A model generated the notes under the pieces. It was not told the DNA's origin. It searched no databases and worked only from the letters and a program-made list of their open reading frames with translations. From positions 1 to 40,263 of IMG/VR virus record IMGVR_UViG_3300045988_028614: a stretch of DNA of 40,263 bases; one strand, 5' to 3'. Position numbers and translations under genes: made by a program. This DNA comes from a virus. This document shows positions 1 to 40,263 of the stretch, one piece after another (within the stretch, counting starts at the first letter, position 1; each line of letters begins with the position of its first letter).

Positions 1-60
1 ATTTTTTTATAAATATTTGCTATATAGAAATTAGTGTAGTTTTTGTAGTAAATGTAGTAA
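1..60. repeat. Iteron array B, distal part (array wraps across the contig junction from 39921..40263)
   Basis: gctatatagaaa followed by tgtagtttttgtagtaaatgtagtaa (35-60), which is three inverted copies of the TTACTACATTT unit. These 26 nt are identical to 24985-25010 in array A. Confidence 0.8.
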
Positions 61-120
61 CTTAGATTTTTATTTTGTTACAAGGGGAGAGTGAAGGAGG
101 TTTCCTCCTCACGAAAATTC

Positions 121-149
121 TTGACACGTAAAGCTATTTTTGCTATAAT
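121..149 (+). promoter_or_regulatory. Sigma-A type promoter
   Basis: TTGACA (121-126), 17-nt spacer, extended -10 TGcTATAAT (141-149). An imperfect inverted repeat gtgaaggagg/cctcctcac (91-112) lies just upstream. Confidence 0.6.
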
Positions 150-155
150 GTAAGT

Positions 156-222
156 ATAAAAGTACCTCCAAACGATAAAGTGTTTTGCAAAAGGGCGTTC
201 TAGTTAAGAACGTTCTTTTTTT
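156..222 (+). ncRNA. Candidate short transcript or attenuated leader running from promoter 121-149 to terminator 193-222
   Basis: Promoter and intrinsic terminator are about 70 nt apart with no ORF between them. It contains cctcc (165-169), an anti-Shine-Dalgarno-like motif. The 5' end is inferred only from -10 spacing. Confidence 0.3.
193..222 (+). terminator. Rho-independent terminator
   Basis: Stem cgttct (196-201) / agaacg (207-212), 5-nt loop, then ttcttttttt. Confidence 0.6.
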
Positions 223-228
223 ATGCAC

Positions 229-258
229 TTTACAAATTTATAACGCATTTGATATAAT
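229..258 (+). promoter_or_regulatory. Putative promoter for the scaffold-capsid genes
   Basis: TTTACA (229-234), 18-nt spacer, TATAAT (253-258). Confidence 0.45.
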
Positions 259-24520: not shown

Positions 24521-24652
24521 ATGAAGAATATTGATAAAATCGCTAACGAATTATTACAAACAAAGACTTGCAAGACTACAAAGGAAGCTTATGAGTATGC
24601 TAGGTATTTAAAGAATTATACTATGATGCTCTACAAACAACAATATAAATAA
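24521..24652 (+). CDS. Hypothetical 43-aa protein (not in the ORF track)
   Basis: ATG with RBS aggaggt; MKNIDKIANELLQTKTCKTTKEAYEYARYLKNYTMMLYKQQYK; followed by a terminator. Confidence 0.45.
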   Translation: MKNIDKIANELLQTKTCKTTKEAYEYARYLKNYTMMLYKQQYK

Positions 24653-24662
24653 ACCATTATAA

Positions 24663-24687
24663 AGGCACTTAATAGGTGTCTTTTTTT
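24663..24687 (+). terminator. Rho-independent terminator
   Basis: ggcact-taata-ggtgtc followed by ttttttt. Confidence 0.55.
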
Positions 24688-24688
24688 A

Positions 24689-25010
24689 TTACTACATTTA
24701 CTACATTTTTAAGTTACATTTTTGTAGTTTTACTACATTTACTACACTTAATTATAAACAAAATGTTACCAATCAATTCATAATTAATTAAAATATTTAC
24801 TACATTTTTAAGCTTACTACATTTTTTACTACATAATTACTACATTTTTAAAACCCTTTGTAAGCTAGTGATACCAACGCTTTATATATATTTACTACAT
24901 TTACTACATTAAATTATAAGACTTTATTATAAGTAATAAAATAATATATATATTTTATATAAAAATGTGCTATATAGAAAATGATGTAGTTTTTGTAGTA
25001 AATGTAGTAA
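24689..25010. repeat. Iteron array A (origin-like): about 10 direct and 3-4 inverted copies of TTACTACATTT around an AT-rich block
   Basis: Direct ACTACA cores at 24691, 24700, 24732, 24741, 24799, 24816, 24829, 24839, 24894 and 24903. AT-only stretch 24911-24967. Inverted copies at 24985-25010. Non-coding. Collinear with 39921..40263+1..60. Confidence 0.85.
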
Positions 25011-25116
25011 GTGATTAATTTTTATTTCTTATAATGGTTCAAAGATGTTCCGAGACGAATAATGAAATAAAATATTTTCACCTCATCACTCCATAATTAT
25101 TTTTTAGAAAAAAGTA

Positions 25117-25144
25117 TTGACAAGATAATTAAGTATGCTATAAT
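25117..25144 (+). promoter_or_regulatory. Conserved early promoter cassette, copy 2
   Basis: TTGACAagataattaagtatgcTATAATtatacttgta. Confidence 0.7.
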
Positions 25145-25174
25145 TATACTTGTAGAGAACATCGAGGAGGTATT

Positions 25175-25396
25175 ATGATGGTTATTAAGAAAAGTGAAAT
25201 CAGAAAAACTCTTCAAGATTGGAGAAGAATGGAAGAAAGGACTTGCAAAACCAACATGGCGGCTTATAAAAGTCCGGAGTTAACAACTAGATTTATTAAA
25301 AGAATCGCTTTTATAATTGGTTGTCCTAAAGAATCAGAAGCAGTTAAGGTTTTAAGACCTTATATAAAACAGTTTAAAGAGGAGGGAGTTATTTAA
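25175..25396 (+). CDS. Hypothetical protein
   Basis: 73 aa, RBS gaggaggt. Confidence 0.5.
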   Translation: MMVIKKSEIRKTLQDWRRMEERTCKTNMAAYKSPELTTRFIKRIAFIIGCPKESEAVKVLRPYIKQFKEEGVI

Positions 25397-25887
25397 TGAA
25401 ACTATATGAATTATCACAAAACTTTAGAAACTTACAACAAGTTTTAGAAAATGCGGGAGAAGATGAAAATTTAAAAGAGTTAGTTATAAACTCTATGAAA
25501 GGATTAGAGTGCGATTTATCTACAAAGGTAGAAAATATCGTGAGATTAATTAAAAACCTACAAGCAGAAGCGGAAGCGTTAAAAGCGGAAGAAAAAAGAT
25601 TAGCAAGAGAACGAAAGATAAGAGAGAATAAGATTGAGAACTTACAAAGGTACTTATTTGATACTATAAGCGGATTAGAGAAGAGAGAAGTCAAAGGTGG
25701 TATATTTACTGTAAGTGTAAAGAAAAACCCTCCTAAAGCGATTGTAGAGGATTTAAACGCTATACCGAGACAATTTATTGTAAATACTCCTAGCGTGGAT
25801 AAGAAAATGCTTAAAGAAGCGTTGAAAAATGGCGAGAAAATAGAAGGGGCTAAATTAGTGCAAGAGGAAAGTTTAAAAATAAGATAA
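25396..25887 (+). CDS. Siphovirus Gp157-like protein
   Basis: MKLYELSQNFRNLQQVLE..., a coiled coil, ...IPRQFIV...DKKMLKEALKNGEKIEGAKLVQEESLKIR. Family-typical termini and position upstream of an ERF recombinase. Confidence 0.7.
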   Translation: MKLYELSQNFRNLQQVLENAGEDENLKELVINSMKGLECDLSTKVENIVRLIKNLQAEAEALKAEEKRLARERKIRENKIENLQRYLFDTISGLEKREVKGGIFTVSVKKNPPKAIVEDLNAIPRQFIVNTPSVDKKMLKEALKNGEKIEGAKLVQEESLKIR

Positions 25888-25916
25888 TTGACAAGGTAAT
25901 TAAGTTAGTGTATAAT
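25888..25916 (+). promoter_or_regulatory. Conserved early promoter cassette, copy 3
   Basis: TTGACAaggtaattaagttagtgTATAATtaaattgtca. Confidence 0.65.
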
Positions 25917-25945
25917 TAAATTGTCAGTTAAAAGGAGGTATTTTT

Positions 25946-26536
25946 ATGAATAGAAGTGAAACAATAGTTAAATTAGCAGTTGCTTTAGCGAAGTTCAATG
26001 CCGAAGTAACAAGTATATCAAAAGATGCTAAAAATCCATTCTTCAAAAGTGATTATGTAACACTTGATAAGCTTATATTAGCAACTAGGGATATATTGCA
26101 GAAGAATGGTTTATCAGTCTTACAAATGCCGTTGAGTAAGGAAACTGGAGAAATAGGAATACAAACTATTTTACTACATGAGAGCGGGGAATATATAGAG
26201 AGTGAACCATTATTCATGAAACCAGTTAAAAACGACCCACAACAAGCAGGTAGCTTAATAACTTATCTTAGAAGATATTCATATCAAGCTATTTTAAATC
26301 TTAATACAGGCGAAGATGATGATGCAAATTTAACTACTCATGGAAGTTCTAAGCCAAAGGAAGGTCTATCAGATAAGCAATTAAGCAGATTGTTCGCTAT
26401 AGGAAAATCTAAAGGAATAAACCAAGCAACTATAACAGCTCAATGCGTAAAAGAATTTGGAGTATCTGATATAAGTCAAATGACTAAAGAACAGTACGAT
26501 AACATTTGTAGTAGATTGGAGAAAGTTCAAAAATAA
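25946..26536 (+). CDS. ERF-family single-strand annealing protein
   Basis: LAKFNAEVTSISKDAKNPFFKSDYVTLDKLILATRDILQKNGLSVLQ and ...GSLITYLRRYSYQAILNL are characteristic ERF motifs. Confidence 0.8.
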   Translation: MNRSETIVKLAVALAKFNAEVTSISKDAKNPFFKSDYVTLDKLILATRDILQKNGLSVLQMPLSKETGEIGIQTILLHESGEYIESEPLFMKPVKNDPQQAGSLITYLRRYSYQAILNLNTGEDDDANLTTHGSSKPKEGLSDKQLSRLFAIGKSKGINQATITAQCVKEFGVSDISQMTKEQYDNICSRLEKVQK

Positions 26537-27198
26537 TGAGATATAGATTTACTGAAAGAGAAATAGAAAACGCATTAAATAAAATGATTATTATAATAGA
26601 TTCGAGGGAGCAAAAAGCTTCCTCTTATAAATCTGAATGGAATAGGAATCAAGTTAGATATTATTCTACAGAGGAATATAAAAAGTATAATAAAGAGTGT
26701 AAAATTCCTAAAAAAGACTTGTTTGAAGCTAATTTACCAGCTGGGGATTACTCGGCTATGATACCTAAAGGAACGCTAGAGGGAATTGATAGGGCGTTAT
26801 GGTTTGATAAATATACTATTGTAGAAAAGAAAGGTAGTATTAACGAGTTAGCGGGCAATATCAAGGTTACAAATGGAGAAAAGAAACGTTTAGATAACGA
26901 GTTCGCAAGGCTTAAAGCGAACGGAACTAAACACAGAATACTTATAGAAGATGCTTTATATTTCAAACATATGTATGAAGGTACAGGCGACCATAAACAT
27001 GGTTGGAAAAGTAGCATAAGTCTATTAGGTGCTATTGATAGAAGTCTTTCAGAATGGGGGACAGAATTAATTCCAGTGCCTAAAGAGTATATGGCTAAAA
27101 GGATTTATGCTATTTTAAGAAATGATGTAAGAACTTGTTTGAGAGAACATTTTGAGATCAAGAATATTAATAAGTTTATGGAGGTTGAAAATGAGTGA
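26536..27198 (+). CDS. ERCC4 (XPF/Mus81)-like nuclease domain protein
   Basis: IIIDSREQK...LPAGDYSA...IVEKKGSINELAGNI follows the ERCC4 pattern D.RE ... GDY ... ERK..DL with a conservative variation. Confidence 0.5.
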   Translation: MRYRFTEREIENALNKMIIIIDSREQKASSYKSEWNRNQVRYYSTEEYKKYNKECKIPKKDLFEANLPAGDYSAMIPKGTLEGIDRALWFDKYTIVEKKGSINELAGNIKVTNGEKKRLDNEFARLKANGTKHRILIEDALYFKHMYEGTGDHKHGWKSSISLLGAIDRSLSEWGTELIPVPKEYMAKRIYAILRNDVRTCLREHFEIKNINKFMEVENE

Positions 27199-27358
27199 TA
27201 GTAAAGCGTGCTTAATAACAAGTATGGGGATAGCTTTAATGGGATTGATAGCTTATCCAAATAGTAGCATCTTAGCAAAACTTATTTTAATAGGTGTTAC
27301 AATTGGAGGGGTTGCTACTGCAATTATAATTAAAGAGTTAAAGGAGAGTAAGAGATAA
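27191..27358 (+). CDS. Small membrane protein (two predicted TM segments)
   Basis: ATG 27191 after ggaggt; MSDSKACLITSMGIALMGLIAY...LILIGVTIGGVATAIII. Confidence 0.5.
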   Translation: MSDSKACLITSMGIALMGLIAYPNSSILAKLILIGVTIGGVATAIIIKELKESKR

Positions 27359-28017
27359 TGAAAGTTAGTTTAATAGATATAACAAATAACCCAATAGAAA
27401 AGATATATAAGGCTTATAGAATATGCTACAGTAAAGATTCTTGGGATAATATAAAAATTAAGAGTGAGAAGGAAATGTGTGATTTTATAGTTCCTCTTAT
27501 GATGGAACAACACACTAGCCCCCTTGAACACGTTAGTTTTAGTTTTGCTATAGAAGGAATTTCGAGAGTGTGTTTAGCACAGTTGACTAGACATAGAACA
27601 TTTAAGTTTAATGTTCAGTCGCAAAGATATGTTGATGGTAGTAACTTTGATTTTGTTATGCCTAATTTAAATTATATGAATGAAACAAAGGGTAAAATAG
27701 CAAAGGAAGATTTAAAAGAATTTTTTGAACATTCCAAAGAAATGTATAGATATTTAACAGAATTAGGAATTAAAAAAGAAGATGCTAGAGCAATATTACC
27801 ACAAGCAACAACTTGTAATTTAATAGTTACAATGGATTTAAATAACTTTAGAAACTTTTTAAGACAAAGAAAGTGTATTCATGCACAGAAAGAGATTAGA
27901 GAATTGGCTTTTATTATGATAGATTTATTAAAACCTCATATTCCATTTGTAGATTACAAAGTTTTATTGTGTGAACAAGGTTTATGTAGTAAATGCCTTG
28001 ACAAAATAAATCAATAA
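27358..28017 (+). CDS. thyX: FAD-dependent thymidylate synthase
   Basis: ThyX signature TRHRTFKFNVQSQRY (RHR...SQRY). 219 aa. Confidence 0.9.
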   Translation: MKVSLIDITNNPIEKIYKAYRICYSKDSWDNIKIKSEKEMCDFIVPLMMEQHTSPLEHVSFSFAIEGISRVCLAQLTRHRTFKFNVQSQRYVDGSNFDFVMPNLNYMNETKGKIAKEDLKEFFEHSKEMYRYLTELGIKKEDARAILPQATTCNLIVTMDLNNFRNFLRQRKCIHAQKEIRELAFIMIDLLKPHIPFVDYKVLLCEQGLCSKCLDKINQ

Positions 28018-28026
28018 GTATATAAT
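27998..28026 (+). promoter_or_regulatory. Conserved early promoter cassette, copy 4 (overlaps the thyX 3' end)
   Basis: TTGACAaaataaatcaataagtaTATAATtaaattgtaaat. Confidence 0.6.
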
Positions 28027-28046
28027 TAAATTGTAAATAAATTTAA

Positions 28047-28118
28047 AGTTGGTTAAGTGAGTTTATAGTGTTGAGAATAAAATATTCGCCTATATCTTGT
28101 ACGCCTCACTTTCCAACT
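28047..28118 (+). promoter_or_regulatory. Long-range stem in the ssb 5' leader ending just before the RBS
   Basis: agttggttaagtgag (28047-28061) pairs with ctcactttccaact (28105-28118) as 6+7 bp with a small bulge. The RBS aaggagg starts at 28119. Confidence 0.4.
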
Positions 28119-28132
28119 AAGGAGGTAATAGA

Positions 28133-28504
28133 ATGAATCAAGTTAACTTATTAGGGCGTTTAAGCAAAGATGTAGATTATAGAACAGGTAATACTAATAT
28201 TGCTAGATTCACGTTAGCAGTAAATAGAAAATTCAAAAGAGATGAAGCTGATTTTATAAATTGTATAGCGTTCGGTAAAACTGCTGATATAATAAATCAA
28301 TATCTTTCGAAAGGTTCTCAAATTGCTATAAGTGGAAATATAAGAACAGGAAGCTATGGAGCTCAAGATGGTACTAGAAGATATACAACAGATATAGTTG
28401 TTGAAAATTTTGACTTTATAAGCAGTAACAATAAACAAGAGAATAAAGTAAATGAGTTTGAAGAAGAAATGAATAGGGTTGAAGATGGATATGTTCCATT
28501 TTAG
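28133..28504 (+). CDS. ssb: Single-stranded DNA-binding protein
   Basis: MNQVNLLGRLSKDVDYR... OB-fold N-terminus and an acidic C-terminal tip, EDGYVPF. Confidence 0.9.
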   Translation: MNQVNLLGRLSKDVDYRTGNTNIARFTLAVNRKFKRDEADFINCIAFGKTADIINQYLSKGSQIAISGNIRTGSYGAQDGTRRYTTDIVVENFDFISSNNKQENKVNEFEEEMNRVEDGYVPF

Positions 28505-29157: not shown

Positions 29158-30126
29158 ATGATTAAGATTAAAGTAAGTCAGAAAGGTTATAAAGTTAAAC
29201 CAACTGCAACTGACATGATAGATATTACAATGGGTATGAAAAATTACCCTTGTATATACGTTGATTATAGAGAAATAAAAGAATATTTAAAAAGAGGTCA
29301 TTCTGTTTTATTAGCAGAATTTCAAGAAGATAGTAAGGATATATTTGAAAGCAGCATTAATTGTTTAGAGTGTATTGCTTTAGATGTAGATAGCAAAGAA
29401 AATGAGATTACATTATTTGAAATGGTTGCATTAGTAAATAAAAAACTAGGTGTTTATCCTATAATAGAATATCCAACTTTTAGTGATACTGATTACACTA
29501 AATTCAGATTGATTTATAGATTAGAAAGTCCTATTGATGTTGAAACTTATAAGTTATTGTATAAGGCTCTACAATGGAAGTTTAATAAATATTTAGATCA
29601 AGCTACAAGCAACGCAAATCGTATATGGGCTGGGACAAATAAAGAGGTAACTTACAGAGAGAACGACATTCCTATAAGTTGTACATTAATTGTAAAACTT
29701 ATAAATGCTTATCAATCTAAGTTAAAGAGGGATAACAAAGCTAAGCAAAAAGTTATTGAAAAAGGGTATACTCAATATGACGGTGAGGATTATATTAAGC
29801 CGCAATATAAAGAAGAGTGTTTAAATAGACTAATATCGTCTATAAGCTTAAAAGACTTCATACAGAAGCATCTAGGTGGAGAATTTAAGTATATGAATGG
29901 TAATTATATTGGTAGATGTGTTTTGCATGGTGGAGATAATAAAGGAGCTTTAGTTATAAATGATGAAAAAGGTATTTACACTTGCTTTACACATTGTGGA
30001 ACTGGTAATTTAATATCAGTTGCTAAAAAGGTTTATGGAATTACTAATTTTTCTAAATTGGCGTTTATATTAGCGCAAGAATATAATTTAAGTATTCCGG
30101 AAGAATGGATTAGGAGGATTAAATAA
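29158..30126 (+). CDS. Primase-related protein: possible AEP-like N-region plus a C-terminal CHC2 (DnaG-type) zinc finger
   Basis: C-terminus LKDFIQKHLGGEFKYMNGNYIGRCVLHGGDNKGALVINDEKGIYTCFTHCGTGNLISV matches the CHC2 primase zinc finger. CIALDVDS in the N-half could be a DxD catalytic motif, but this is weak. Confidence 0.5.
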   Translation: MIKIKVSQKGYKVKPTATDMIDITMGMKNYPCIYVDYREIKEYLKRGHSVLLAEFQEDSKDIFESSINCLECIALDVDSKENEITLFEMVALVNKKLGVYPIIEYPTFSDTDYTKFRLIYRLESPIDVETYKLLYKALQWKFNKYLDQATSNANRIWAGTNKEVTYRENDIPISCTLIVKLINAYQSKLKRDNKAKQKVIEKGYTQYDGEDYIKPQYKEECLNRLISSISLKDFIQKHLGGEFKYMNGNYIGRCVLHGGDNKGALVINDEKGIYTCFTHCGTGNLISVAKKVYGITNFSKLAFILAQEYNLSIPEEWIRRIK

Positions 30127-31929: not shown

Positions 31930-32319
31930 ATGAAAAGACCACTGGGAAAACCTAGAATTTTCAAAACAGAAGAAGAATTTTATAATGCTATAATAGATTA
32001 TTTTGAATATTGTGAAGAAACGGAGAGGTTTCCTAATATAGCAGGAGCAGTAGTTCATATGGGAATAGGTAGAACAACTTTTTATGAATACGAAGCAAAA
32101 TATCCGAACACTTTTAAACTATTTCAAGATATTTTAGAAGATAATGTGCTTCAAAGTAGAGATACAACAACAAAAATTTTCTATCTTAAAAACAAATTTG
32201 GTTATAGAGATAGAATTGAAACAGAAAACACTAACACAAACAACAACGTTAATAAAAACATTGATTTCAGTCATTTATCTAAAGAAGATATAAAGGAGTT
32301 GTTAAGAAATGAATCTTAG
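31930..32319 (+). CDS. terS: Terminase small subunit
   Basis: MKRPLGKPRIFKTEEEFYNAIIDYFEYCEETERFPNIAGAVVHMGIGRTTFYEY is a typical small-terminase HTH N-terminus, located upstream of terL. Confidence 0.8.
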   Translation: MKRPLGKPRIFKTEEEFYNAIIDYFEYCEETERFPNIAGAVVHMGIGRTTFYEYEAKYPNTFKLFQDILEDNVLQSRDTTTKIFYLKNKFGYRDRIETENTNTNNNVNKNIDFSHLSKEDIKELLRNES

Positions 32320-33706
32320 ACAACAACTTCAATGTGAATTAGCGAGGCGTGAATTTTGGGAGTATTGCAAATTGTTATATCCTAGCTTTTATAAAGAAGA
32401 AAGAGGATATTTGAAAGAACTTTGTAATGCTCTCGAAGACTTTTATTATAATGATGATGAATATATGATAATTAATGCACCACCAAGACATGGAAAGTCA
32501 TTTACTGCGGGTAATTTTGTAGAATGGGTATTAGGACAAGATGCTACATTTAAGATTATGACAGGTTCATACAACGAAGATTTGTCTAAGACTTTCAGTA
32601 AAAAAGTAAGAACCACTATAGAAACTGAAAAGATAGGGGAAATGTTTGTATATAGCGATATCTTTCCTAATACTAAAATCAAATATGGTAGTGCAGAAGC
32701 TAAGAAGTGGCAAACTGATGCGAGTTCACAGATAAATTACTTGGCAACATCACCAACAGGGACTGCAACTGGATTTGGTGCTAATATGGAGGTTATAGAC
32801 GACCTTATAAAGTCAGATGAAGAAGCAAACAACGAAACTGTTTTAGAAAAACATTGGGATTGGTTCGTTAATACAATGCTATCAAGAAGAGAAGGTAAAA
32901 AGAAAGTCCTTATCATAATGACTAGATGGAGAACTAAGGATTTAGCGGGACGTATAATTGATATGCTAGAAGAGGAAGGGGCGAAATATACTCATATAAA
33001 CTTCAAGGCTAAGAATGGCGATAAGATGCTATGCGAAGATATATTTAGTTTGAAAGACTATAGTAAGGCTATGAAGATAATGAGTGAAGATACTTTTAAA
33101 GCTAACTATCAACAAGAACCTATGGATTTAAAAGGTGCTTTATATCAATACTTCTTAGAATATGATGAAATTCCTAAGGATATAAGAGCAATAGAGAATT
33201 ACACAGATACTGCTGACGAGGGTGCTGATAGCCTTTGTAGTATAAATTACGCAGTAGGACAAGACGGAAACGCCTATATACTAGATGTATTATTTACTAA
33301 AGAATCAATGGAAACTACAGAAAAGAAATGTGCTGAAATGATCACTAAGGATAATGTTAATTTTGCTAGAATAGAAAGTAATAATGGTGGTCGTGGATTT
33401 AGTAGAAACGTTGAGAGAATTGCTAAAACAGAGTATAATAATAGTATAACTATTTTTAAACCATTCCACCAAAGTGCTAATAAAGTTGCAAGAATACTAA
33501 CAGGAAGTACAGGTGTAATGAGAAATGTTTATTTCCCTAAAGGTTGGAAACTTATGTGGCGAGAGTTTTACGAAGAGTTACAAGGGTATCAGAGAGAGGG
33601 GAAGAATAAGCATGATGATGCACCTGATGCACTAACTGGAGTATATGAAATCTTAGAGAAGAAATATAAAAAGAAACGTAGCTTTAGTGCGAATAGAATT
33701 TTTTAG
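32309..33706 (+). CDS. terL: Terminase large subunit
   Basis: Walker A INAPPRHGKSF, Walker B-like MEVIDDL, and C-terminal nuclease acidic residues (NKHDDAPDAL). Confidence 0.9.
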   Translation: MNLRQQLQCELARREFWEYCKLLYPSFYKEERGYLKELCNALEDFYYNDDEYMIINAPPRHGKSFTAGNFVEWVLGQDATFKIMTGSYNEDLSKTFSKKVRTTIETEKIGEMFVYSDIFPNTKIKYGSAEAKKWQTDASSQINYLATSPTGTATGFGANMEVIDDLIKSDEEANNETVLEKHWDWFVNTMLSRREGKKKVLIIMTRWRTKDLAGRIIDMLEEEGAKYTHINFKAKNGDKMLCEDIFSLKDYSKAMKIMSEDTFKANYQQEPMDLKGALYQYFLEYDEIPKDIRAIENYTDTADEGADSLCSINYAVGQDGNAYILDVLFTKESMETTEKKCAEMITKDNVNFARIESNNGGRGFSRNVERIAKTEYNNSITIFKPFHQSANKVARILTGSTGVMRNVYFPKGWKLMWREFYEELQGYQREGKNKHDDAPDALTGVYEILEKKYKKKRSFSANRIF

Positions 33707-33717
33707 GAGGTATTGAG

Positions 33718-34296
33718 ATGGAATTTAAAGATTTAGTAGTAGGTAAAAAATATAAAGTAGTTTCGCAATTTTGGAGTGGTGCACCAAAAGGTGAAATAAT
33801 CCGAATAGTTACAAAGGGTTCTGATTGTTTTACTTATGAAAAACAAAAAGAAACTCAAAAAGGATTTTATTTCGTAATCGATAATTCCGAAGATTTACCA
33901 TTGCAAGAAAACAAAAATATTTCAAGTGTTAAAGAAATGGTAAACCACCCAAACCACTATAATAAAGGTAAATATGAAGTTATAGATGTTATAGAGGACT
34001 GGGGGCTTGGTTTTTCTTTAGGCAACGCTATAAAATACATTGCTAGATGCGAACACAAAGGGAATAAAAAGCAAGATTTAGAGAAAGCTATATTTTATAT
34101 TGAAAGAGTTTTTGATTCAGAAGATTACTTTACAAACCACATAATAACTATAGGTATAGATGAAGTTTTAAAAGATTGGAATTTATCTCCTATGTTAACA
34201 TTGGCAGTTTATGAGTTATTTATTGCTACAAGAGAAAAGCGAAAATTAGGAAAAGTTATAACTTTCATAAAAAAAGAACTAGAAAAGGAGGAATAA
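33718..34296 (+). CDS. DUF3310-domain protein with an N-terminal extension
   Basis: VNHPNHYNKGKYEVIDVIEDWGLGFSLGNAIKYIARCEHKGNKKQDLEKAIFYIE is the DUF3310 signature. Confidence 0.75.
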   Translation: MEFKDLVVGKKYKVVSQFWSGAPKGEIIRIVTKGSDCFTYEKQKETQKGFYFVIDNSEDLPLQENKNISSVKEMVNHPNHYNKGKYEVIDVIEDWGLGFSLGNAIKYIARCEHKGNKKQDLEKAIFYIERVFDSEDYFTNHIITIGIDEVLKDWNLSPMLTLAVYELFIATREKRKLGKVITFIKKELEKEE

Positions 34297-34297
34297 A

Positions 34298-35653
34298 ATG
34301 AAAACATTCCAAGACTTTCAAGCTAGTGGGGATAAAGCTTCTTTTATCCTCCAAGCTATACAGGAATTTAAAGGAACGAGTAAATATAACAACGCTATAG
34401 AAGCACAAGCGTATTATAGAGAAGAGAACACAAAGATTAAGAACCGTCTTAAATGGCTTTATGATAGTTTAGGAAGGCAAGTAGTAGATAAGTTTAAGGC
34501 TAATAATAAAATCGCTAATACACTATTTCCTAAGATAATTAAGCAAGAGGTTAGTTATCTATTAGCAAACGGGCTTATGACAGAAGAAAAAGTAAAAGAA
34601 GGTTTAGGGAAGAAATTCGATATTAAACTTAAAAGATGTGGAACTGCTGCGCTTGTAGATGGTGTTGGTTGGGGTTATTGTTTTATTAACTCTAAAGGAC
34701 AATTTGATATTGATATATGGAGAGGAACTGAATTTATACCACTAGAAGATGAAAGAACTGGTCAAGTTAGAGCAGGAATAAGATTCTGGCAAATAGACAC
34801 AGATAAACCTATGTGGATAGAACTGTATGAAGAGGATGGAAAGACAGAGTATAAGTGTGATAAAAATAAAATAGAGATAACAGAGCCTAAGAAGAATTAC
34901 ATTATCAAGACTGTTAAAGATGCTATAGAAGAGAGAGAAATCGGACAAGAAGGATTCAGTAGACTTCCGATATTCCCTTTATATGCAAATGATATAAGGA
35001 CATCTAGATTTACATTTGCTTTGAAACAAAAAATCGACTTATACGATATTGTTTATTCAGATTTCTCTAATAACTTTGAAGATAACGAGGATATATATTG
35101 GGCTTTAAAGAATTATAATGGAGAAGCGGGGGACTTTTTAAGTGATCTAAAGCAATATAAAATGATAAATGTTGATGAGGACGGAGACGCAACCCCTCAC
35201 ACTTTAGAAGTTCCATACCAAGCTAGAGAAACTATTCTAAATATGTTAAATAAATCGATATACTCTGATGCTATGGGACTTGATACCTCTGTATTAGCGG
35301 GTGGTAGTTTAACTAACGTTGCTATAAAAGCTAATATGTTGGACTTAGATTTAAAGACCGACGAATTTGAAACTGGTTGCTTAGATTTTTGCGATAATAT
35401 AATTCAGTTGTACTTAGAATATATCAAGAAACCTAACGAGAAATATTCTGTTAATTTTGTTAGGAATAGGTTAGTTGATGAAACAGAAGTAATTAATAAT
35501 ATAATTAATTCTGTTAGTGCTTCTATAATGAGTTTAGATACTGCTTTAAGAAGTCATCCTATGATAGATGATATTAAACTAGAAAAGCAACTGATAGATG
35601 AAGAAATTGCTGATAAATTTAAGTTAGAAGAGCCTAAAGAAGAGGTAGTGTAA
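34298..35653 (+). CDS. Portal protein (SPP1 gp6-like)
   Basis: 451 aa, positioned between terL and the MuF-like gene, with an acidic C-terminus. Confidence 0.8.
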   Translation: MKTFQDFQASGDKASFILQAIQEFKGTSKYNNAIEAQAYYREENTKIKNRLKWLYDSLGRQVVDKFKANNKIANTLFPKIIKQEVSYLLANGLMTEEKVKEGLGKKFDIKLKRCGTAALVDGVGWGYCFINSKGQFDIDIWRGTEFIPLEDERTGQVRAGIRFWQIDTDKPMWIELYEEDGKTEYKCDKNKIEITEPKKNYIIKTVKDAIEEREIGQEGFSRLPIFPLYANDIRTSRFTFALKQKIDLYDIVYSDFSNNFEDNEDIYWALKNYNGEAGDFLSDLKQYKMINVDEDGDATPHTLEVPYQARETILNMLNKSIYSDAMGLDTSVLAGGSLTNVAIKANMLDLDLKTDEFETGCLDFCDNIIQLYLEYIKKPNEKYSVNFVRNRLVDETEVINNIINSVSASIMSLDTALRSHPMIDDIKLEKQLIDEEIADKFKLEEPKEEVV

Positions 35654-35693
35654 TGCTATCTCTTTTCTTGTATAATTAAAGAGAGGTGATATT

Positions 35694-36593
35694 ATGGATA
35701 AAGCACATAAAGAAACTGATAAAATCCTTGCTAAGCTAGAAAAAAATATTGAAGAGTTATATTCTGATGCTTTAAGAGAATTAAAAAGTAAATTAAATAC
35801 CGTTATAAGTCGAATAGACACTACTAAAGACGCACAACAGATATATAATCAATTACAACAGAAAAAGCGTTTAGAAGCTCTTATAAGAGAAATGTCACTG
35901 GTTGTTAATAATGCCAATAAGGTCGCTATGGATATCATGAACGATGATATGATAGACATTTATTCTTTAAACTATAATTGGGGAGCTTATGAAGTAGAAA
36001 AGGCAGTTGCTAAAGATATAGGATATACTCTTTATAATAGAAACGCTATCAAGTTATTATTAAAAGAAGAGATAAACCCGTTTACCTTGATGGCTATTGA
36101 TGATTTAACAGATAAGACTACTTTGTATAAAGAATTAAAGAAAGCTCTTGCTAGTGGACTTCTACAAGGTGAGAGTATGCAGAAGATAGCTTCAAGAATT
36201 AAAAAAATAACTGAAAAGAACTATAATGATTCTCTTAGAATTGCTAGAACCGAAACGACTAGAATAGAGAATGTTGGCAGATTAGACAGTTATAAGTTTG
36301 CAGAAAAACAAGGATTAAAGATTCAAAAATCATGGTTAGCTACAATGGATAAGAGGACGAGAGAAACGCATCAGAGAGTTAATGGCGAGATAGTTGACTT
36401 GGATAAGCCTTTTAGTAATGGTTTAATGTACCCGGGCGACCCAAACGGTGGAGCAAGTGAAGTAATCCGCTGTAGATGTACTATGACTACTGAATTTATA
36501 GGTTTCGAAAAAGGAGAAAAAGAAAAAGAACTTGATGAAAAACTTAGAAAAATGAGTTTTGAAGAATGGCAAGAAAGGAAGAAAAAGAAATGA
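35694..36593 (+). CDS. Head morphogenesis protein (Mu F / SPP1 gp7-like)
   Basis: RIARTETTRIENVG...WLATMDKRTRETHQRVNGEIV...PGDPNGGASEVIRCRCT are family motifs. Confidence 0.85.
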   Translation: MDKAHKETDKILAKLEKNIEELYSDALRELKSKLNTVISRIDTTKDAQQIYNQLQQKKRLEALIREMSLVVNNANKVAMDIMNDDMIDIYSLNYNWGAYEVEKAVAKDIGYTLYNRNAIKLLLKEEINPFTLMAIDDLTDKTTLYKELKKALASGLLQGESMQKIASRIKKITEKNYNDSLRIARTETTRIENVGRLDSYKFAEKQGLKIQKSWLATMDKRTRETHQRVNGEIVDLDKPFSNGLMYPGDPNGGASEVIRCRCTMTTEFIGFEKGEKEKELDEKLRKMSFEEWQERKKKK

Positions 36594-38480: not shown

Positions 38481-38609
38481 ATGAAAAATCGTAAGAGAAG
38501 TAAACAAGTTAAATTCTACCTTACTGAAAAAGAGAAAAAAGCGTTTGATAATTGGAGAGGTGAAAAACCTATTCATATCGCTATAATGGAAATAGTTAAT
38601 GGTAAATAA
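38481..38609 (+). CDS. 42-aa CopG/MobC-like ribbon-helix-helix candidate (not in the ORF track)
   Basis: RBS gaggtg; MKNRKRSKQVKFYLTEKEKKAFDNWRGEKPIHIAIMEIVNGK. A basic tail, a beta-strand (VKFYL) and two short helices fit an RHH pattern. Confidence 0.45.
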   Translation: MKNRKRSKQVKFYLTEKEKKAFDNWRGEKPIHIAIMEIVNGK

Positions 38610-38622
38610 GGAGGATATTAAA

Positions 38623-39882
38623 ATGCAAAACACTAAAAAAGTTTTTTCAATTAATGATGTTAAAAATAAAAAGAGCAACGTTTCTCTTATACAATTTCCG
38701 GAGGTTAAATATTTAAAAGATGGCGGAACAGTTCCAATAAAGACAATGGCAAATTTAGAATATTTGTTAAATCATTATGGAATAAATCCAGTTATGAATA
38801 AGATAACTCATGAATTAACTTTACAAATGGAAGGCAGAAAGTTTAAAAAAAGAGGTGAGATGCTGACATTTGTATATGATTTACAAGTGAAAGAAGGTTT
38901 AAATCTTAATAGGGCGGTATGCGACGAATATTTAATTGATATAGCTAACAGAAAAGAAATAAATCCCTTTGTAGATATGTTGAAGAAGTATAGAAATGAT
39001 AATCACGATATAGTGCTTGATGTGTTTGAAAAGTGTTTAACGCTTCAAGATGATGCTTTAGAAGATGCAGAGTATTATTTCACTTTGTTTTATAAATGGC
39101 TTCTAAATGTTGTTAAAATGGCTCACAATGAGCTAGAAAACCGTTATAGTTCTAATGGAGTACTAACACTTCAAGGGGAACAGGGATGCCGTAAATCAAC
39201 GTTTGCACGTAAATTAATGCCGCTTAATGACTTGTTCAAAGATGGAGTATCTTTAGACCCTGATAAAACTGATAGCGTGATTCAAAATACTAAATATATT
39301 CTTGTTGAGTTAGCAGAATTAGATACAACTTTAAAAGCTGACCAAGGTAAAATTAAGCAGTTTTTAACTAATACAACTGATGAATATAGAGTTCCGTTTG
39401 GTCGTGTCGCTGAAATATATCCAAGGCTAACAAGTTATATTGCTAATGTTAATAAAAAAGATTTCTTAAAAGATGAAACAGGTTCAAGAAGGTTTTGGGT
39501 AATTCCTGTTAAATCTTGTAATATAGAAGAGTTTGACAATTTCAATATGTTTGAGTTTTGGGGCGCAGTATATGATATGTGGTTGACTAATTATAGTATT
39601 GATTGGTTGACCAAAGAGGAAGAAGCGAAACAAAAAATAATTAATAGACAATTCAATGCTCAAACAGATATATCAATCATATTAGATGACAAAGTAGACT
39701 GGGAAAGTAACGACTTGAGAGTGTACAAGCTTACAGAAATAGCTGAAAAGCTCAATATAAAAGAAAAGAAAGCACTTGCTAATGAGCTTATGAGGAGAGG
39801 AATACCTAACCAACCATATAAAGTTGATGGTAAATCAATCCGTGGTTACAAAATACCATTTATAAGAGATTACTGGGAATAA
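38623..39882 (+). CDS. VirE-family (virulence-associated protein E / primase-helicase C-terminal type) P-loop NTPase, putative replication helicase or initiator
   Basis: ATG 38623 with RBS aaggagg (the track starts at 38599). Walker A LTLQGEQGCRKSTF, Walker B ILVELAELD, and the family motif YRVPFGRVAEIYPRLTSYIANVNKKDFLKDETGSRRFWVIPV. Confidence 0.75.
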   Translation: MQNTKKVFSINDVKNKKSNVSLIQFPEVKYLKDGGTVPIKTMANLEYLLNHYGINPVMNKITHELTLQMEGRKFKKRGEMLTFVYDLQVKEGLNLNRAVCDEYLIDIANRKEINPFVDMLKKYRNDNHDIVLDVFEKCLTLQDDALEDAEYYFTLFYKWLLNVVKMAHNELENRYSSNGVLTLQGEQGCRKSTFARKLMPLNDLFKDGVSLDPDKTDSVIQNTKYILVELAELDTTLKADQGKIKQFLTNTTDEYRVPFGRVAEIYPRLTSYIANVNKKDFLKDETGSRRFWVIPVKSCNIEEFDNFNMFEFWGAVYDMWLTNYSIDWLTKEEEAKQKIINRQFNAQTDISIILDDKVDWESNDLRVYKLTEIAEKLNIKEKKALANELMRRGIPNQPYKVDGKSIRGYKIPFIRDYWE

Positions 39883-39886
39883 ATTA

Positions 39887-39914
39887 AGGCAGTATTTTTA
39901 CTGTCTTTTTTTTT
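39887..39914 (+). terminator. Rho-independent terminator
   Basis: aggcagta-tttt-tactgtct followed by ttttttttt. Confidence 0.75.
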
Positions 39915-39920
39915 ATTTTC

Positions 39921-40263
39921 AATTACTACATTTTCGGATTCAGTTACTACATTTTTATGTAGTAATACTACATTTTTACTACATTTTTACTACATTTTGC
40001 GGTTACATTTTTGTAGTTTACTACATTTTTAACAATAAAACTTATTGATAAACTGTTAAAACTCATTCATATATTATTAATTACTTTACTACATTTTTAG
40101 GGTTACTACATTTTTTACTACACTTTTACTACATTTTTGTAACCCCTTCAAACCGTTGGTATCACTAGCTTTATATATATTTACTACATTTACTACATTT
40201 ATTTTCAAGAGTTTATTTATAATAATAAATTATATATATATTTTTTTATAAATATTTGCTATA
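39921..40263. repeat. Iteron array B (origin-like), proximal part; continues at 1..60
   Basis: Direct ACTACA cores at 39925, 39946, 39967, 39978, 39989 (11-nt phasing), 40020, 40088, 40105, 40117, 40128, 40183 and 40192. Inverted copies near 39958 and 40012. AT-only block 40200-40250. Confidence 0.85.
40240..40263. repeat. 24-nt terminal overlap with positions 1..24 (circular closure of the contig)
   Basis: atttttttataaatatttgctata occurs at both ends. Confidence 0.9.

What the first reader, a model, noticed from the sequence alone, without database searches (positions are those of the whole stretch)
39921..40263. A second, collinear copy of the whole iteron array lies about 15 kb away
Array B (39921-40263, continuing at 1-60) repeats the architecture of array A block for block and in the same orientation. 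Shared blocks include gttacatttttgtagttt (40002-40019 = 24713-24730), a 32-nt identical block gctttatatatatttactacatttactacatt (40168-40199 = 24879-24910), and the 26-nt inverted-iteron block (35-60 = 24985-25010). Three consecutive units sit exactly 11 nt apart (39967, 39978, 39989), which is one helical turn. The two arrays divide the circle into a roughly 24.6-kb arc holding the virion, lysis and accessory genes and a roughly 14.9-kb arc holding the replication and packaging genes. Possible interpretations are two origins, one origin plus one handcuffing/incompatibility or centromere-like site, or a recombination substrate able to split the genome into two circles. I know of no standard phage feature that explains such a duplicated complex array.
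Basis: seen in the sequence. Interest (0 to 1): 0.75.

Follow-up and report, generated by a model that had tools for sequence, protein, structure and literature searches.

The report
Duplicated replication origin in Clostridium phage
This Clostridium perfringens phage carries two full copies of its probable replication-origin DNA about 15 kb apart; all sequenced relatives keep both copies, and the layout resembles the two origins of Bacillus phage SPP1, so it is real and selected but not unprecedented.

Summary
The window is a circularised 40,239-bp genome of a phiCP39-O/phiCP26F-group Clostridium perfringens siphophage. Array B (39923-40263, continuing at 25-60) and array A (24689-25010) are collinear, 80% identical over 331 columns, and hold every exact copy of TACTACATT in the genome. 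Both arrays are present in all 15 related GenBank records, so this is not an assembly artefact. Array A is the best-conserved DNA in its neighbourhood.

Array B starts 41 bp after the stop codon of a VapE-family helicase. The predicted fold of that helicase matches the SaPI1 Rep initiator-helicase over its full length. Each array has the SaPI-type origin core: two direct iterons, 74 bp of about 90% A+T, and three inverted iterons.

More distant relatives have their own iteron sequence directly 3' of the VapE gene. Those sharing the SPP1-like portal-MuF-scaffold module carry a second array with the same iteron between MuF and scaffold, which is where SPP1 has oriR.

Best reading: two copies of a Rep-type origin, a counterpart of SPP1 oriL/oriR. 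What the second copy does (second origin, fork barrier or enhancer) is inferred, not shown. I rate this a new variant of a known kind, of moderate interest.

The parts
39923..40263 (+). Array B, main part. It holds 12 direct TACTACAT units and one internal inverted unit, the box, and most of the AT-rich stretch.
1..60 (+). Array B, continuation across the window junction. Bases 1-24 duplicate 40240-40263. Bases 25-34 end the AT-rich stretch. Bases 35-60 hold the three inverted units (TGTAGT, TGTAGTA, TGTAGTA).
24689..25010 (+). Array A. It holds 10 direct and 3 inverted units, is collinear with B, and is 99.4-99.7% identical in four other phages.
24911..24984 (.). AT-rich stretch of array A (74 bp, 89% A+T against 69% for the genome). 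It is the candidate DNA-unwinding element and ends in the conserved GCTATATAGAAA.
40200..40263 (.). AT-rich stretch of array B (74 bp in all, 90.5% A+T), continuing at 25-34.
24863..24879 (+). 17-nt box AGCTAGTGATACCAACG in array A.
40154..40170 (-). The same 17-nt box in array B, in the opposite orientation.
38599..39882 (+). VapE-family SF3 helicase with a C-terminal winged-helix-like domain. It is the candidate initiator (Rep). Its stop codon lies 41 bp before the first unit of array B.
   Evidence: Pfam PF05272, E 7e-41. AlphaFold2 model, pLDDT 86.7. Best Foldseek PDB match 7pds, SaPI1 PriRep1 with DNA, E 2e-17, TM 0.66-0.68.
29158..30126 (+). Primase-like protein with a CHC2 zinc ribbon. 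In distant relatives its gene directly precedes the VapE gene or is fused to it.
39886..39907 (+). Intrinsic terminator between the VapE gene and array B.
24661..24683 (+). Intrinsic terminator just upstream of array A.
25117..25144 (+). Sigma-70-type promoter matching 12 of 12 consensus positions, with TG, downstream of array A. It heads the replication/packaging gene block.
121..149 (+). Sigma-70-type promoter matching 12 of 12 consensus positions, with TG, downstream of array B.
25396..28504 (+). Recombination gene set in the arc between the arrays: Gp157 (25396-25887), ERF annealing protein (25946-26536), ERCC4-type nuclease (26536-27198, below the Pfam cut-off) and SSB (28133-28504).
31930..36593 (+). 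Packaging and head genes in SPP1 order between the arrays: small terminase, large terminase, SPP1-type portal and a Mu F-like protein. The scaffold (311-862) and capsid (878-1855) genes follow array B.

Best explanation
Both arrays are copies of the phage's replication origin, of the type used by self-loading Rep helicases of the VapE/SF3 family, as in staphylococcal pathogenicity islands (SaPIs).

The proposed mechanism, all inferred by homology, runs as follows. The 427-aa helicase encoded at 38599-39882 reads the TACTACAT units through its C-terminal winged-helix domain. It assembles on the direct units and on the inverted units that flank the 74-bp, 90% A+T stretch. It melts that stretch and loads itself, and the phage primase-like protein supplies primers.

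The pair of arrays is the counterpart of oriL and oriR of Bacillus phage SPP1. One copy starts circle-to-circle replication. The other copy is bound by the same initiator and either fires as a second origin or stalls the incoming fork. A stalled fork would let the phage's ERF, nuclease, SSB and Gp157 set switch replication to concatemer synthesis for packaging. The terminase-portal block lies in the arc between the two copies, and the pac or cos site probably does too (inferred).

What is shown: the duplication itself, its conservation, the anatomy of the arrays, the fold of the helicase, and the positional parallels. What is inferred: binding of the helicase to the units, firing of either copy, and what the second copy does.
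For: 1. Position. Array B begins 41 bp after the VapE stop codon. In 14 low-GC relatives a cluster of short repeats lies directly 3' of the VapE gene, each with its own 7-mer. In several of them the last unit abuts the ribosome-binding site of the next gene, leaving no room for a promoter.

2. Protein. Pfam VapE matches at E 7e-41. The AlphaFold2 model (pLDDT 86.7) best matches 7pds, SaPI1 PriRep1 bound to dsDNA, over the full length (E 2e-17, TM 0.66-0.68). A sequence search of the PDB also finds 7pds (E 7e-11). For SaPI Reps, experiments showed that the ori lies immediately downstream of rep and has 6-12 iterons around a central AT-rich region. At least two iterons on each side point in opposite directions, and a C-terminal winged-helix domain reads them (PMC9371898).

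3. Anatomy. Both arrays have two direct units, then 74 bp of 89-90% A+T, then three inverted units.

4. Specificity. The contig L009 carries a divergent VapE allele (core 63% identical) in an otherwise 93-99% identical phage. It keeps the C-terminal 56 residues at 93% identity and the same TACTACAT units.

5. Both copies are selected. Both are present in all 15 records. Orthologous copies group together, so the duplication predates these phages. Array A is 99.4-99.7% identical across phages, against 90-94% for the adjacent intergenic DNA and 94-96% for the downstream genes.

6. The pair recurs with other iterons. L010 (GGTTACCT), L011 (AAGTTAC) and L075 (AGGTAACC) each have one array 3' of VapE and a second with the same unit between Mu F and scaffold.

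7. SPP1 parallel. SPP1 has two similarly organised origins 12-13 kb apart, both bound by gp38. oriR lies between gene 7 and scaffold gene 11 and is bracketed by transcription signals. A fork-stalling model involves the annealing protein, exonuclease, SSB and resolvase (PMC6316719 and PMC3485210). The gene order is the same.
Against: - There is no experimental evidence for binding or for initiation at either array.
- The link between the helicase C-terminus and the iteron rests on one mosaic pair. L010 and L075 share the 7-mer AGGTAAC with only 52% identity in the C-terminal domain.
- A small HTH protein gene also travels with the primase-VapE module and cannot be excluded as the protein that reads the repeats.
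- In this phage group both arrays sit between a terminator and a consensus promoter, which also fits a regulatory role.
- Array A, the copy not next to the helicase gene, is the better conserved of the two. This does not tell us which copy is primary.
- GC skew is monotonic and says nothing about origins.
- The arrays contain a conserved box that also occurs in phages with no detectable VapE gene nearby. At least one further unknown factor may therefore act there.
- The initiator is unrelated to SPP1 gp38, so the SPP1 model is an analogy and not homology.
Confidence: 0.55

Rival explanations
1. Only one array is an origin. The other is a cis-acting replication enhancer like crr of phage P4. 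It is bound by the same initiator and loops to the origin, is needed for firing or for copy control (handcuffing), but never initiates itself.
For: The initiator belongs to the same superfamily (SF3) as P4 alpha. Relatives carry a fused primase-VapE protein of about 700 aa, which has the P4 alpha architecture. P4 needs ori and crr, both carrying the same iterons and lying 4.5 kb apart (my own knowledge, not checked here). Both arrays are under selection.
Against: Both arrays keep the complete core of direct units, an AT-rich stretch and inverted units. An enhancer would need only binding sites. The AT-rich stretch and the GCTATATAGAAA motif are conserved in both copies.
Confidence: 0.2
2. The arrays are operator or enhancer arrays. 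A phage DNA-binding protein (the helicase itself, the XRE-type HTH protein or another) uses them to co-regulate the two promoters that head the two gene blocks.
For: Each array lies between an intrinsic terminator and a consensus promoter (12 of 12 positions) at the start of a gene block. The second array of L010, L011 and L075 lies upstream of the late (scaffold) operon.
Against: In relatives the VapE-adjacent array abuts the ribosome-binding site of the next gene, with no promoter in between. The inverted units end 60 bp (B) and 107 bp (A) upstream of the -35 hexamers, so they do not overlap the promoters. The AT-rich core flanked by opposed units is origin anatomy. The relatives L014, L077 and L078 have a single array that follows the VapE gene, not an operon start.
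Confidence: 0.1
3. The arrays are centromere-like partition or incompatibility sites of a plasmid-like phage state.
For: The arrays consist of dispersed repeat clusters. Phage N15 has dispersed centromere sites (my own knowledge).
Against: No ParA or ParB partition genes were seen in the Pfam scans or in the annotation of 11 relatives. Relatives are described as lytic isolates. The arrays are tied to the helicase gene across relatives.
Confidence: 0.03
4. The direct repeats exist as a recombination substrate that splits the genome into circles of 15 and 25 kb.
For: The repeats are direct, have identical runs of up to 32 nt, and the phage encodes an ERF annealing protein.
Against: The differences that distinguish A from B are fixed in all relatives, so there is no sign of exchange or gene conversion between the copies. 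Neither circle would carry a full gene set. In L010 and L011 the two arrays share little beyond the units.
Confidence: 0.03
5. The second array is an assembly artefact (a misjoined or collapsed repeat).
For: The window ends in a 24-nt overlap that lies inside array B.
Against: Both arrays are present, in the same places, in 15 independently deposited records and in IMG/VR contigs. The two copies differ at 20% of positions.
Confidence: 0.01

Closest known systems
oriL and oriR of Bacillus subtilis phage SPP1
   Same: SPP1 has two similarly organised origin sequences (direct repeats plus an AT-rich unwinding element) 12-13 kb apart on a circular map of about 40 kb. All genes lie on one strand. 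One copy is at the initiator gene. The other sits between the Mu F-like minor head gene and the scaffold gene and is bracketed by transcription signals. The terminase and portal genes lie between the copies. An annealing protein, nuclease and SSB set is encoded nearby.
   Different: The initiator is unrelated. SPP1 uses gp38 with the loader gp39 and the DnaB-type helicase gp40. This phage has a VapE/SF3 helicase and a primase-like protein. oriL lies inside gene 38, whereas here the array lies after the helicase gene. Here the two copies are 80% identical and collinear over 331 bp. In this phage group the helicase-adjacent copy and the scaffold-adjacent copy are one and the same (array B), and the other copy (A) heads the early gene block.
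rep-ori module of Staphylococcus aureus pathogenicity islands (SaPI1, SaPIbov1, SaPI5)
   Same: A VapE-like SF3 helicase-initiator with a C-terminal winged-helix domain. The best structural match is 7pds. The ori lies immediately downstream of rep. Short iterons lie on both sides of an AT-rich centre in opposite orientation. A primase gene lies upstream of rep or is fused to it in relatives.
   Different: As described in the paper read here, a SaPI has a single ori immediately downstream of rep, whereas this phage has two. The units are 7-9 nt, not 5-6 nt, and there are more of them (13-16 per array, with upstream auxiliary clusters). In this phage group the primase gene lies 8.5 kb from the helicase gene. 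Sequence identity to Rep1 is only about 16-18% in the structural alignment.
ori and crr of satellite phage P4 (my own knowledge, not checked in the library)
   Same: An SF3 primase-helicase with a C-terminal origin-binding winged helix binds the same iterons at two separate sites on one genome.
   Different: crr is not known to initiate and consists of two 120-bp repeats. Here both copies have a full origin core. The spacing is 15 kb and not 4.5 kb.

Membership tests
SaPI-type Rep/ori replicon | The initiator is an SF3/VapE-like hexameric helicase with a C-terminal winged-helix domain. | tested here: met
   Pfam PF05272, E 7e-41. The AlphaFold2 model matches 7pds (SaPI1 PriRep1 with dsDNA) over about 455 columns, E 2e-17, TM 0.66-0.68. 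The C-terminal helix-strand-strand pattern spans residues 378-420.
SaPI-type Rep/ori replicon | The ori lies immediately downstream of the rep reading frame. | tested here: met
   The first unit of array B lies 41 bp after the stop codon. The same holds in 14 relatives, each with its own repeat unit.
SaPI-type Rep/ori replicon | Iterons lie on both sides of a central AT-rich region, with at least two on each side in opposite orientation. | tested here: met
   Both arrays have two direct units, 74 bp of 89-90% A+T, and three inverted units.
SaPI-type Rep/ori replicon | A primase gene lies directly upstream of rep or is fused to it. | tested here: not met
   In the window the primase-like gene (29158-30126) lies 8.5 kb upstream of the helicase gene. 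It is adjacent in L010-L013, L075, L076 and L078, and fused in proteins of about 700 aa.
SaPI-type Rep/ori replicon | Rep binds its own iterons specifically and melts the ori. | not testable with these tools
   There is only indirect support. In the W/L009 mosaic the C-terminal domain is 93% identical and the core 63% identical, with the same units. L010 and L075 weaken it: they share a 7-mer with only 52% identity in the C-terminal domain.
SPP1-type dual origin | Two origin sequences of similar organisation lie on one genome, about 12-13 kb apart. | tested here: met
   The copies are 14.9 kb apart and 79.8% identical over 331 columns. L010, L011 and L075 have pairs 8-9 kb apart.
SPP1-type dual origin | The second origin lies between the Mu F-like gene 7 and the scaffold gene 11, bracketed by transcription signals. 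| tested here: met
   Array B lies between the Mu F block (followed by the helicase gene) and the scaffold gene, with a terminator upstream and promoters downstream. L010, L011 and L075 have an array between Mu F and scaffold. The SPP1 layout was confirmed.
SPP1-type dual origin | The initiator is homologous to gp38, with loader gp39 and DnaB-type helicase gp40. | tested here: not met
   The candidate initiator is a VapE/SF3 helicase. No DnaB-type helicase or loader was seen in the proteins scanned or in the annotation of relatives. The resemblance is therefore one of architecture, not family membership.
SPP1-type dual origin | Both origins are bound by the initiator, and the second stalls forks and triggers the theta-to-sigma switch. 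| not testable with these tools
   The gene set such a switch would need is present: ERF, an ERCC4-like nuclease, SSB and Gp157. In SPP1 itself this step is still only a model.
ParABS-type centromere | Partition ATPase and centromere-binding protein genes accompany the repeats. | tested here: not met
   None were found among the 19 window proteins scanned or in the annotation of relatives.

The most novel reading that the evidence does not exclude
A dual origin, with the terminase-portal block (and probably the pac or cos site) in the arc between the two copies and one copy just before the scaffold gene, is a selected architecture of SPP1-like siphoviruses that does not depend on which initiator they use.

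In this Clostridium lineage the pair has been rebuilt around an unrelated, self-loading SF3 helicase. The pair was also kept when the helicase gene moved. This points to a mechanical role for the second copy, such as a programmed fork barrier that starts concatemer synthesis. The 17-nt box, inverted between the copies and shared with many Firmicutes phage arrays, could set the polarity of that role.
Probability: 0.25. Interest if true: 0.6.

Novelty: new variant of a known kind. Interest (0 to 1): 0.42.

Why it matters
**The open question in SPP1.** The role of a second origin in SPP1 is still a model resting on one phage. Here an unrelated initiator system keeps the same two-copy geometry in at least four diverged lineages. 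Each lineage has its own iteron, changed in concert in both copies. This is comparative evidence that the second copy is needed. It also offers a tractable set of natural variants for testing whether the copy is a second origin, a fork barrier or an enhancer.

**Practical use.** These phages are candidates for controlling C. perfringens in poultry. Knowing the origin and the initiator matters for engineering them and for predicting interference between co-infecting relatives. It also matters for resistance caused by a cloned origin.

**Annotation.** The arrays are not mentioned in the one comparative genomics paper on this group that I read. They are also unannotated in the four related GenBank records I inspected.

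Tried and rejected
- **Rfam.** No family matched the window at gathering score. Only chance-level hits appeared in 24600-25200.
- **GC skew.** It is positive throughout because all genes lie on one strand, so it says nothing about origins.
- **Hairpin model for the 17-nt box.** Some copies are flanked by complementary arms. RNAalifold predicted no consensus pairs. Counting pairs for the proposed stem gave 65.3% paired cells against 64.3% in shuffles, and no excess covariation. Rejected: the flanks are conserved as sequence, not as a stem.
- **Scan of IMG/VR for the box**. It found 60 stretches. Roughly half are higher-GC, apparently coding or chance matches. None outside this phage group has a VapE, primase or scaffold homolog in the DNA fetched. 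The box therefore cannot be tied to VapE.
- **Covariation of the helicase C-terminal domain with the iteron across 16 loci**. Only the W/L009 pair is informative. L010 and L075 share a 7-mer with a diverged domain, so the test is suggestive only.
- **VapE in plasmids**. The 8.2-kb Terrisporobacter plasmid pTM2 shows no repeat cluster 3' of its VapE gene, so it gives no independent support.
- **Literature.** The comparative paper on phiCP39-O/26F/9O/13O/34O does not contain the words repeat, origin or iteron. Neither the unit nor the box sequence occurs in the searchable library. No paper in the library links C. perfringens phages with iterons. A usable source for P4 crr was not found, so that comparison rests on my own knowledge.
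- **pac-site reading.** Considered and dropped. The small terminase gene is 7 kb from either array, and the phiCP39-O, phiCP26F and phiCP9O records start 79 bp before it.

Full report
**What the window is.**
The first 24 bases repeat the last 24 exactly, so the window is a circularised genome of 40,239 unique bases with 30.7% G+C. Megablast places it in the phiCP39-O/phiCP26F group of Clostridium perfringens siphophages. Its relatives are CPQ4, HMD-PC1, PMQ04, CPD1, 17DYC, XP41-N3 and phiCP9O/13O/34O/26F/39-O, at 87-97% identity over the aligned parts. All genes of any length lie on the + strand.

**The observation.**
- A formal alignment of array A (24685-25015) with array B (39919-40239 plus 1-66 of the unique circle) gives 264 identical positions in 331 core columns (79.8%). 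Identical runs are 15, 15, 20, 32 and 26 nt. The local score is 184, against 21 +/- 3 for shuffles.
- All 19 plus-strand and both minus-strand exact copies of TACTACATT lie in the two arrays.
- Array A has 10 direct and 3 inverted units. Array B has 12 direct units, one internal inverted unit and three terminal inverted units.

Two corrections apply. Array B continues at 25-60, not 1-60, because 1-24 is the overlap. The copies are also not collinear throughout: the 17-nt box AGCTAGTGATACCAACG is on the + strand in A (24863-24879) and on the - strand in B (40154-40170). These are the only two matches in the genome with up to three mismatches; 0.03 are expected by chance.

**Not an artefact, and both copies are kept.**
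phiCP39-O, phiCP26F, HMD-PC1 and XP41-N3 have both arrays with the same unit spacing. Array A is found at full length in all 15 related records, and so is array B.

In a joint alignment the A copies group together and the B copies group together. The differences that distinguish A from B are fixed, so the duplication predates these phages and the copies are not being homogenised.

Array A is 99.4-99.7% identical between the window and four other phages. The intergenic DNA next to it is 90-94% identical and the downstream genes 94-96%. Array B is 94-95% identical, partly because the window has three 11-nt tandem units where relatives have two.

**Setting.**
Each array lies between an intrinsic terminator (24661-24683; 39886-39907) and a sigma-70-type promoter matching 12 of 12 consensus positions with an upstream TG (25117-25144; 121-149).

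The arc from A to B holds these genes, in order:
- Gp157, ERF, an ERCC4-like nuclease, ThyX and SSB;
- an XRE-type HTH protein and a primase-like protein with a CHC2 zinc ribbon;
- small and large terminase, an SPP1-type portal and a Mu F-like protein;
- last, a 427-aa VapE-family P-loop protein.

The arc from B to A starts with the scaffold and capsid genes.

**The helicase next to array B.**
The VapE protein matches Pfam PF05272 at E 7e-41. An AlphaFold2 model built on 62 homologs has a mean pLDDT of 86.7. Its best matches among solved structures are the six chains of 7pds, SaPI1 PriRep1 with dsDNA, over about 455 columns (E 2e-17, TM 0.66-0.68). These rank ahead of poxvirus D5/E5 and NrS-1 helicases. 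A sequence search of the PDB finds the same entry.

For SaPI Reps the following is experimental knowledge (PMC9371898):
- The ori lies immediately downstream of rep and has 6-12 short iterons.
- An AT-rich region sits in the middle, with at least two iterons on each side pointing in opposite directions.
- A C-terminal winged-helix domain reads the iterons.
- A primase gene lies upstream of rep or is fused to it.
- No loader is needed.

Array B starts 41 bp after the stop codon. Both arrays have two direct units, 74 bp of 89-90% A+T (the genome is 69%), and three inverted units.

**Relatives with other iterons.**
Homologs of the helicase at 40-66% identity are common in clostridial phage contigs, and some are fused to the zinc-ribbon primase. 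The fetched loci show the following.
- L009 (65% identical helicase) has 13 copies of the 7-nt core TACTACA between the helicase and scaffold genes.
- L010, L011, L012, L013 and L014 have the primase gene directly before the VapE gene. Directly after it comes an array of a different unit: GGTTACCT, AAGTTAC, TTTGTACC, TGTAGCA and GTTAC-type respectively. In each, direct and inverted units flank an AT-rich stretch.
- A wider survey in IMG/VR gives further cases, each with its own 7-mer.
- In L011 and L014 the last unit abuts the ribosome-binding site of the next gene. These arrays are therefore not promoter-proximal operators.

**Link between the helicase and the units.**
L009 is a mosaic. It is 93-99% identical to the window on both sides, but the body of its helicase gene is only 61-75% identical at the DNA level. 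At the protein level the ATPase core is 63% identical. The last 56 residues are 93% identical, and the iteron is the same. This is what one expects if the C-terminal domain and the array must stay matched.

The test is not general, however. L010 and L075 share the 7-mer AGGTAAC with only 52% identity in that domain. A small HTH protein gene also travels with the module. Binding by the helicase therefore remains an inference from homology.

**The pair recurs.**
L010, L011 and L075 share the portal, Mu F and scaffold module with the window. Each has a second array with the same unit as its VapE-adjacent array, 8-9 kb downstream, between Mu F and scaffold. In L075 the two are collinear and 85% identical over 104 bp.

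L014 (a C. botulinum prophage with an HK97-type head module), L077 and L078 show a single array within 10 kb on either side.

In the window's group the helicase gene is no longer next to the primase gene. It sits just before the scaffold-proximal array, and the other copy heads the early gene block. The pair was thus kept through a rearrangement.

**Comparison with SPP1.**
SPP1 has oriL inside the initiator gene 38. It has oriR in an intergenic segment between gene 7 (a Mu F-like minor head protein) and gene 11 (scaffold), bracketed by transcription signals. The two origins are 12-13 kb apart, similarly organised (direct repeats plus an AT-rich unwinding element), and both are bound by gp38.

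The current model is that theta replication starts at oriL. The fork then stalls at gp38-bound oriR. The exonuclease, annealing protein, SSB and resolvase convert the stalled fork into rolling-circle synthesis of concatemers (PMC6316719 and PMC3485210).

The SPP1 gene order (small terminase, large terminase, portal, gene 7, oriR segment, scaffold, capsid) matches that of the window. The oriR segment shows a terminator, then repeats, then an AT-rich stretch.

The initiators are unrelated, so this is a shared architecture and not a shared family. Phage P4 offers a second precedent: ori plus crr, both bound by an SF3 primase-helicase. I could not find a source for it in the library, so it rests on my own knowledge.

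**Verdict.**
The arrays are best read as two copies of a Rep-type origin. I put about 0.8 on their being initiator-binding origin sequences, and 0.55 on the full statement, which includes an SPP1-like division of labour. Which copy fires and what the other does is open.

The feature is real, selected and undescribed for these phages in the sources I checked. It is a new variant of something known.

**The box.**
The 17-nt box is the only part of the arrays that is inverted between the copies. Related boxes occur in the arrays of L010-L013. L012 has an inverted pair and L013 a direct pair flanking the AT-rich stretch.

A scan of IMG/VR found about 20 low-GC contigs with the extended consensus aaGCTAGTRATACCAAYGGtttgag in non-coding DNA, often in several copies. 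In L044 and L017 the box is embedded between other iterons next to an AT-rich stretch. In L044 and L015 the array precedes a gene whose product I read as an ArpU/RinA-like late regulator, followed by the small terminase gene; these calls rest on my reading of the translations and were not scanned.

No VapE homolog is detectable in those loci. A hairpin model was tested and rejected. What binds the box is unknown.

Noticed in passing
window 24863-24879 (+) and 40154-40170 (-); also L010-L013, L015, L017, L019, L024, L044 and others: A 17-nt box, AGCTAGTGATACCAACG, is inverted between the otherwise collinear arrays. A degenerate form (GCTAGTRATACCAAYGG, extended consensus aaGC...GGtttgag) recurs in non-coding DNA of about 20 low-GC IMG/VR phage contigs, often in several copies. 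In L044 and L017 it lies between other iterons next to an AT-rich stretch. No VapE homolog is nearby in those contigs. A hairpin model was rejected. What binds the box is unknown.
   Followed up: partly
window 121-258: The consensus promoter at 121-149 is followed by a strong hairpin plus a run of seven U at about 189-222 (-17.8 kcal/mol, z = -2.8). A second promoter then follows at 229-258 (11 of 12 positions, with TG), before the scaffold gene. This looks like a short RNA of about 70 nt, or an attenuated leader, ahead of the late operon. The terminator scan did not list the hairpin.
   Followed up: partly
window 91-112: An imperfect inverted repeat, GTGAAGGAGG-TTT-CCTCCTCAC, lies between the last unit of array B and the -35 hexamer at 121. 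It has no counterpart downstream of array A.
   Followed up: no
window 17-28 and 24967-24978; L010-L014, L075: A second small conserved motif lies at the right edge of the AT-rich stretch. It reads GCTATATAGAAA in the window and CTATAGGAAA-like in relatives whose iterons differ.
   Followed up: no
window 29158-30126 and 38599-39882: The primase-like gene and the VapE helicase gene are 8.5 kb apart in this phage group. They are adjacent in L010-L013, L075, L076 and L078, and fused in many homologs of about 700 aa. The helicase gene seems to have moved next to the scaffold-proximal array.
   Followed up: partly
window 39966-39998: The window has three tandem 11-nt units where phiCP39-O, phiCP26F, HMD-PC1 and XP41-N3 have two. 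The copy number of units varies, probably by slippage.
   Followed up: yes
L009 1420-2673 (ENA contig k141_147670): This is a mosaic relative. Its flanks are 93-99% identical to the window, but the body of the helicase gene is replaced by an allele only 61-75% identical at the DNA level. The C-terminal 56 residues and the iterons are retained.
   Followed up: yes
L013 6263-7882: The ThyX (Thy1) gene of this relative is interrupted by an intein with an HTH domain, according to the precomputed Pfam hits.
   Followed up: no
window 1-24 and 40240-40263: An exact 24-nt overlap of the window ends lies inside the AT-rich stretch of array B. It is a circularisation overlap and not a biological terminal repeat.
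   Followed up: yes
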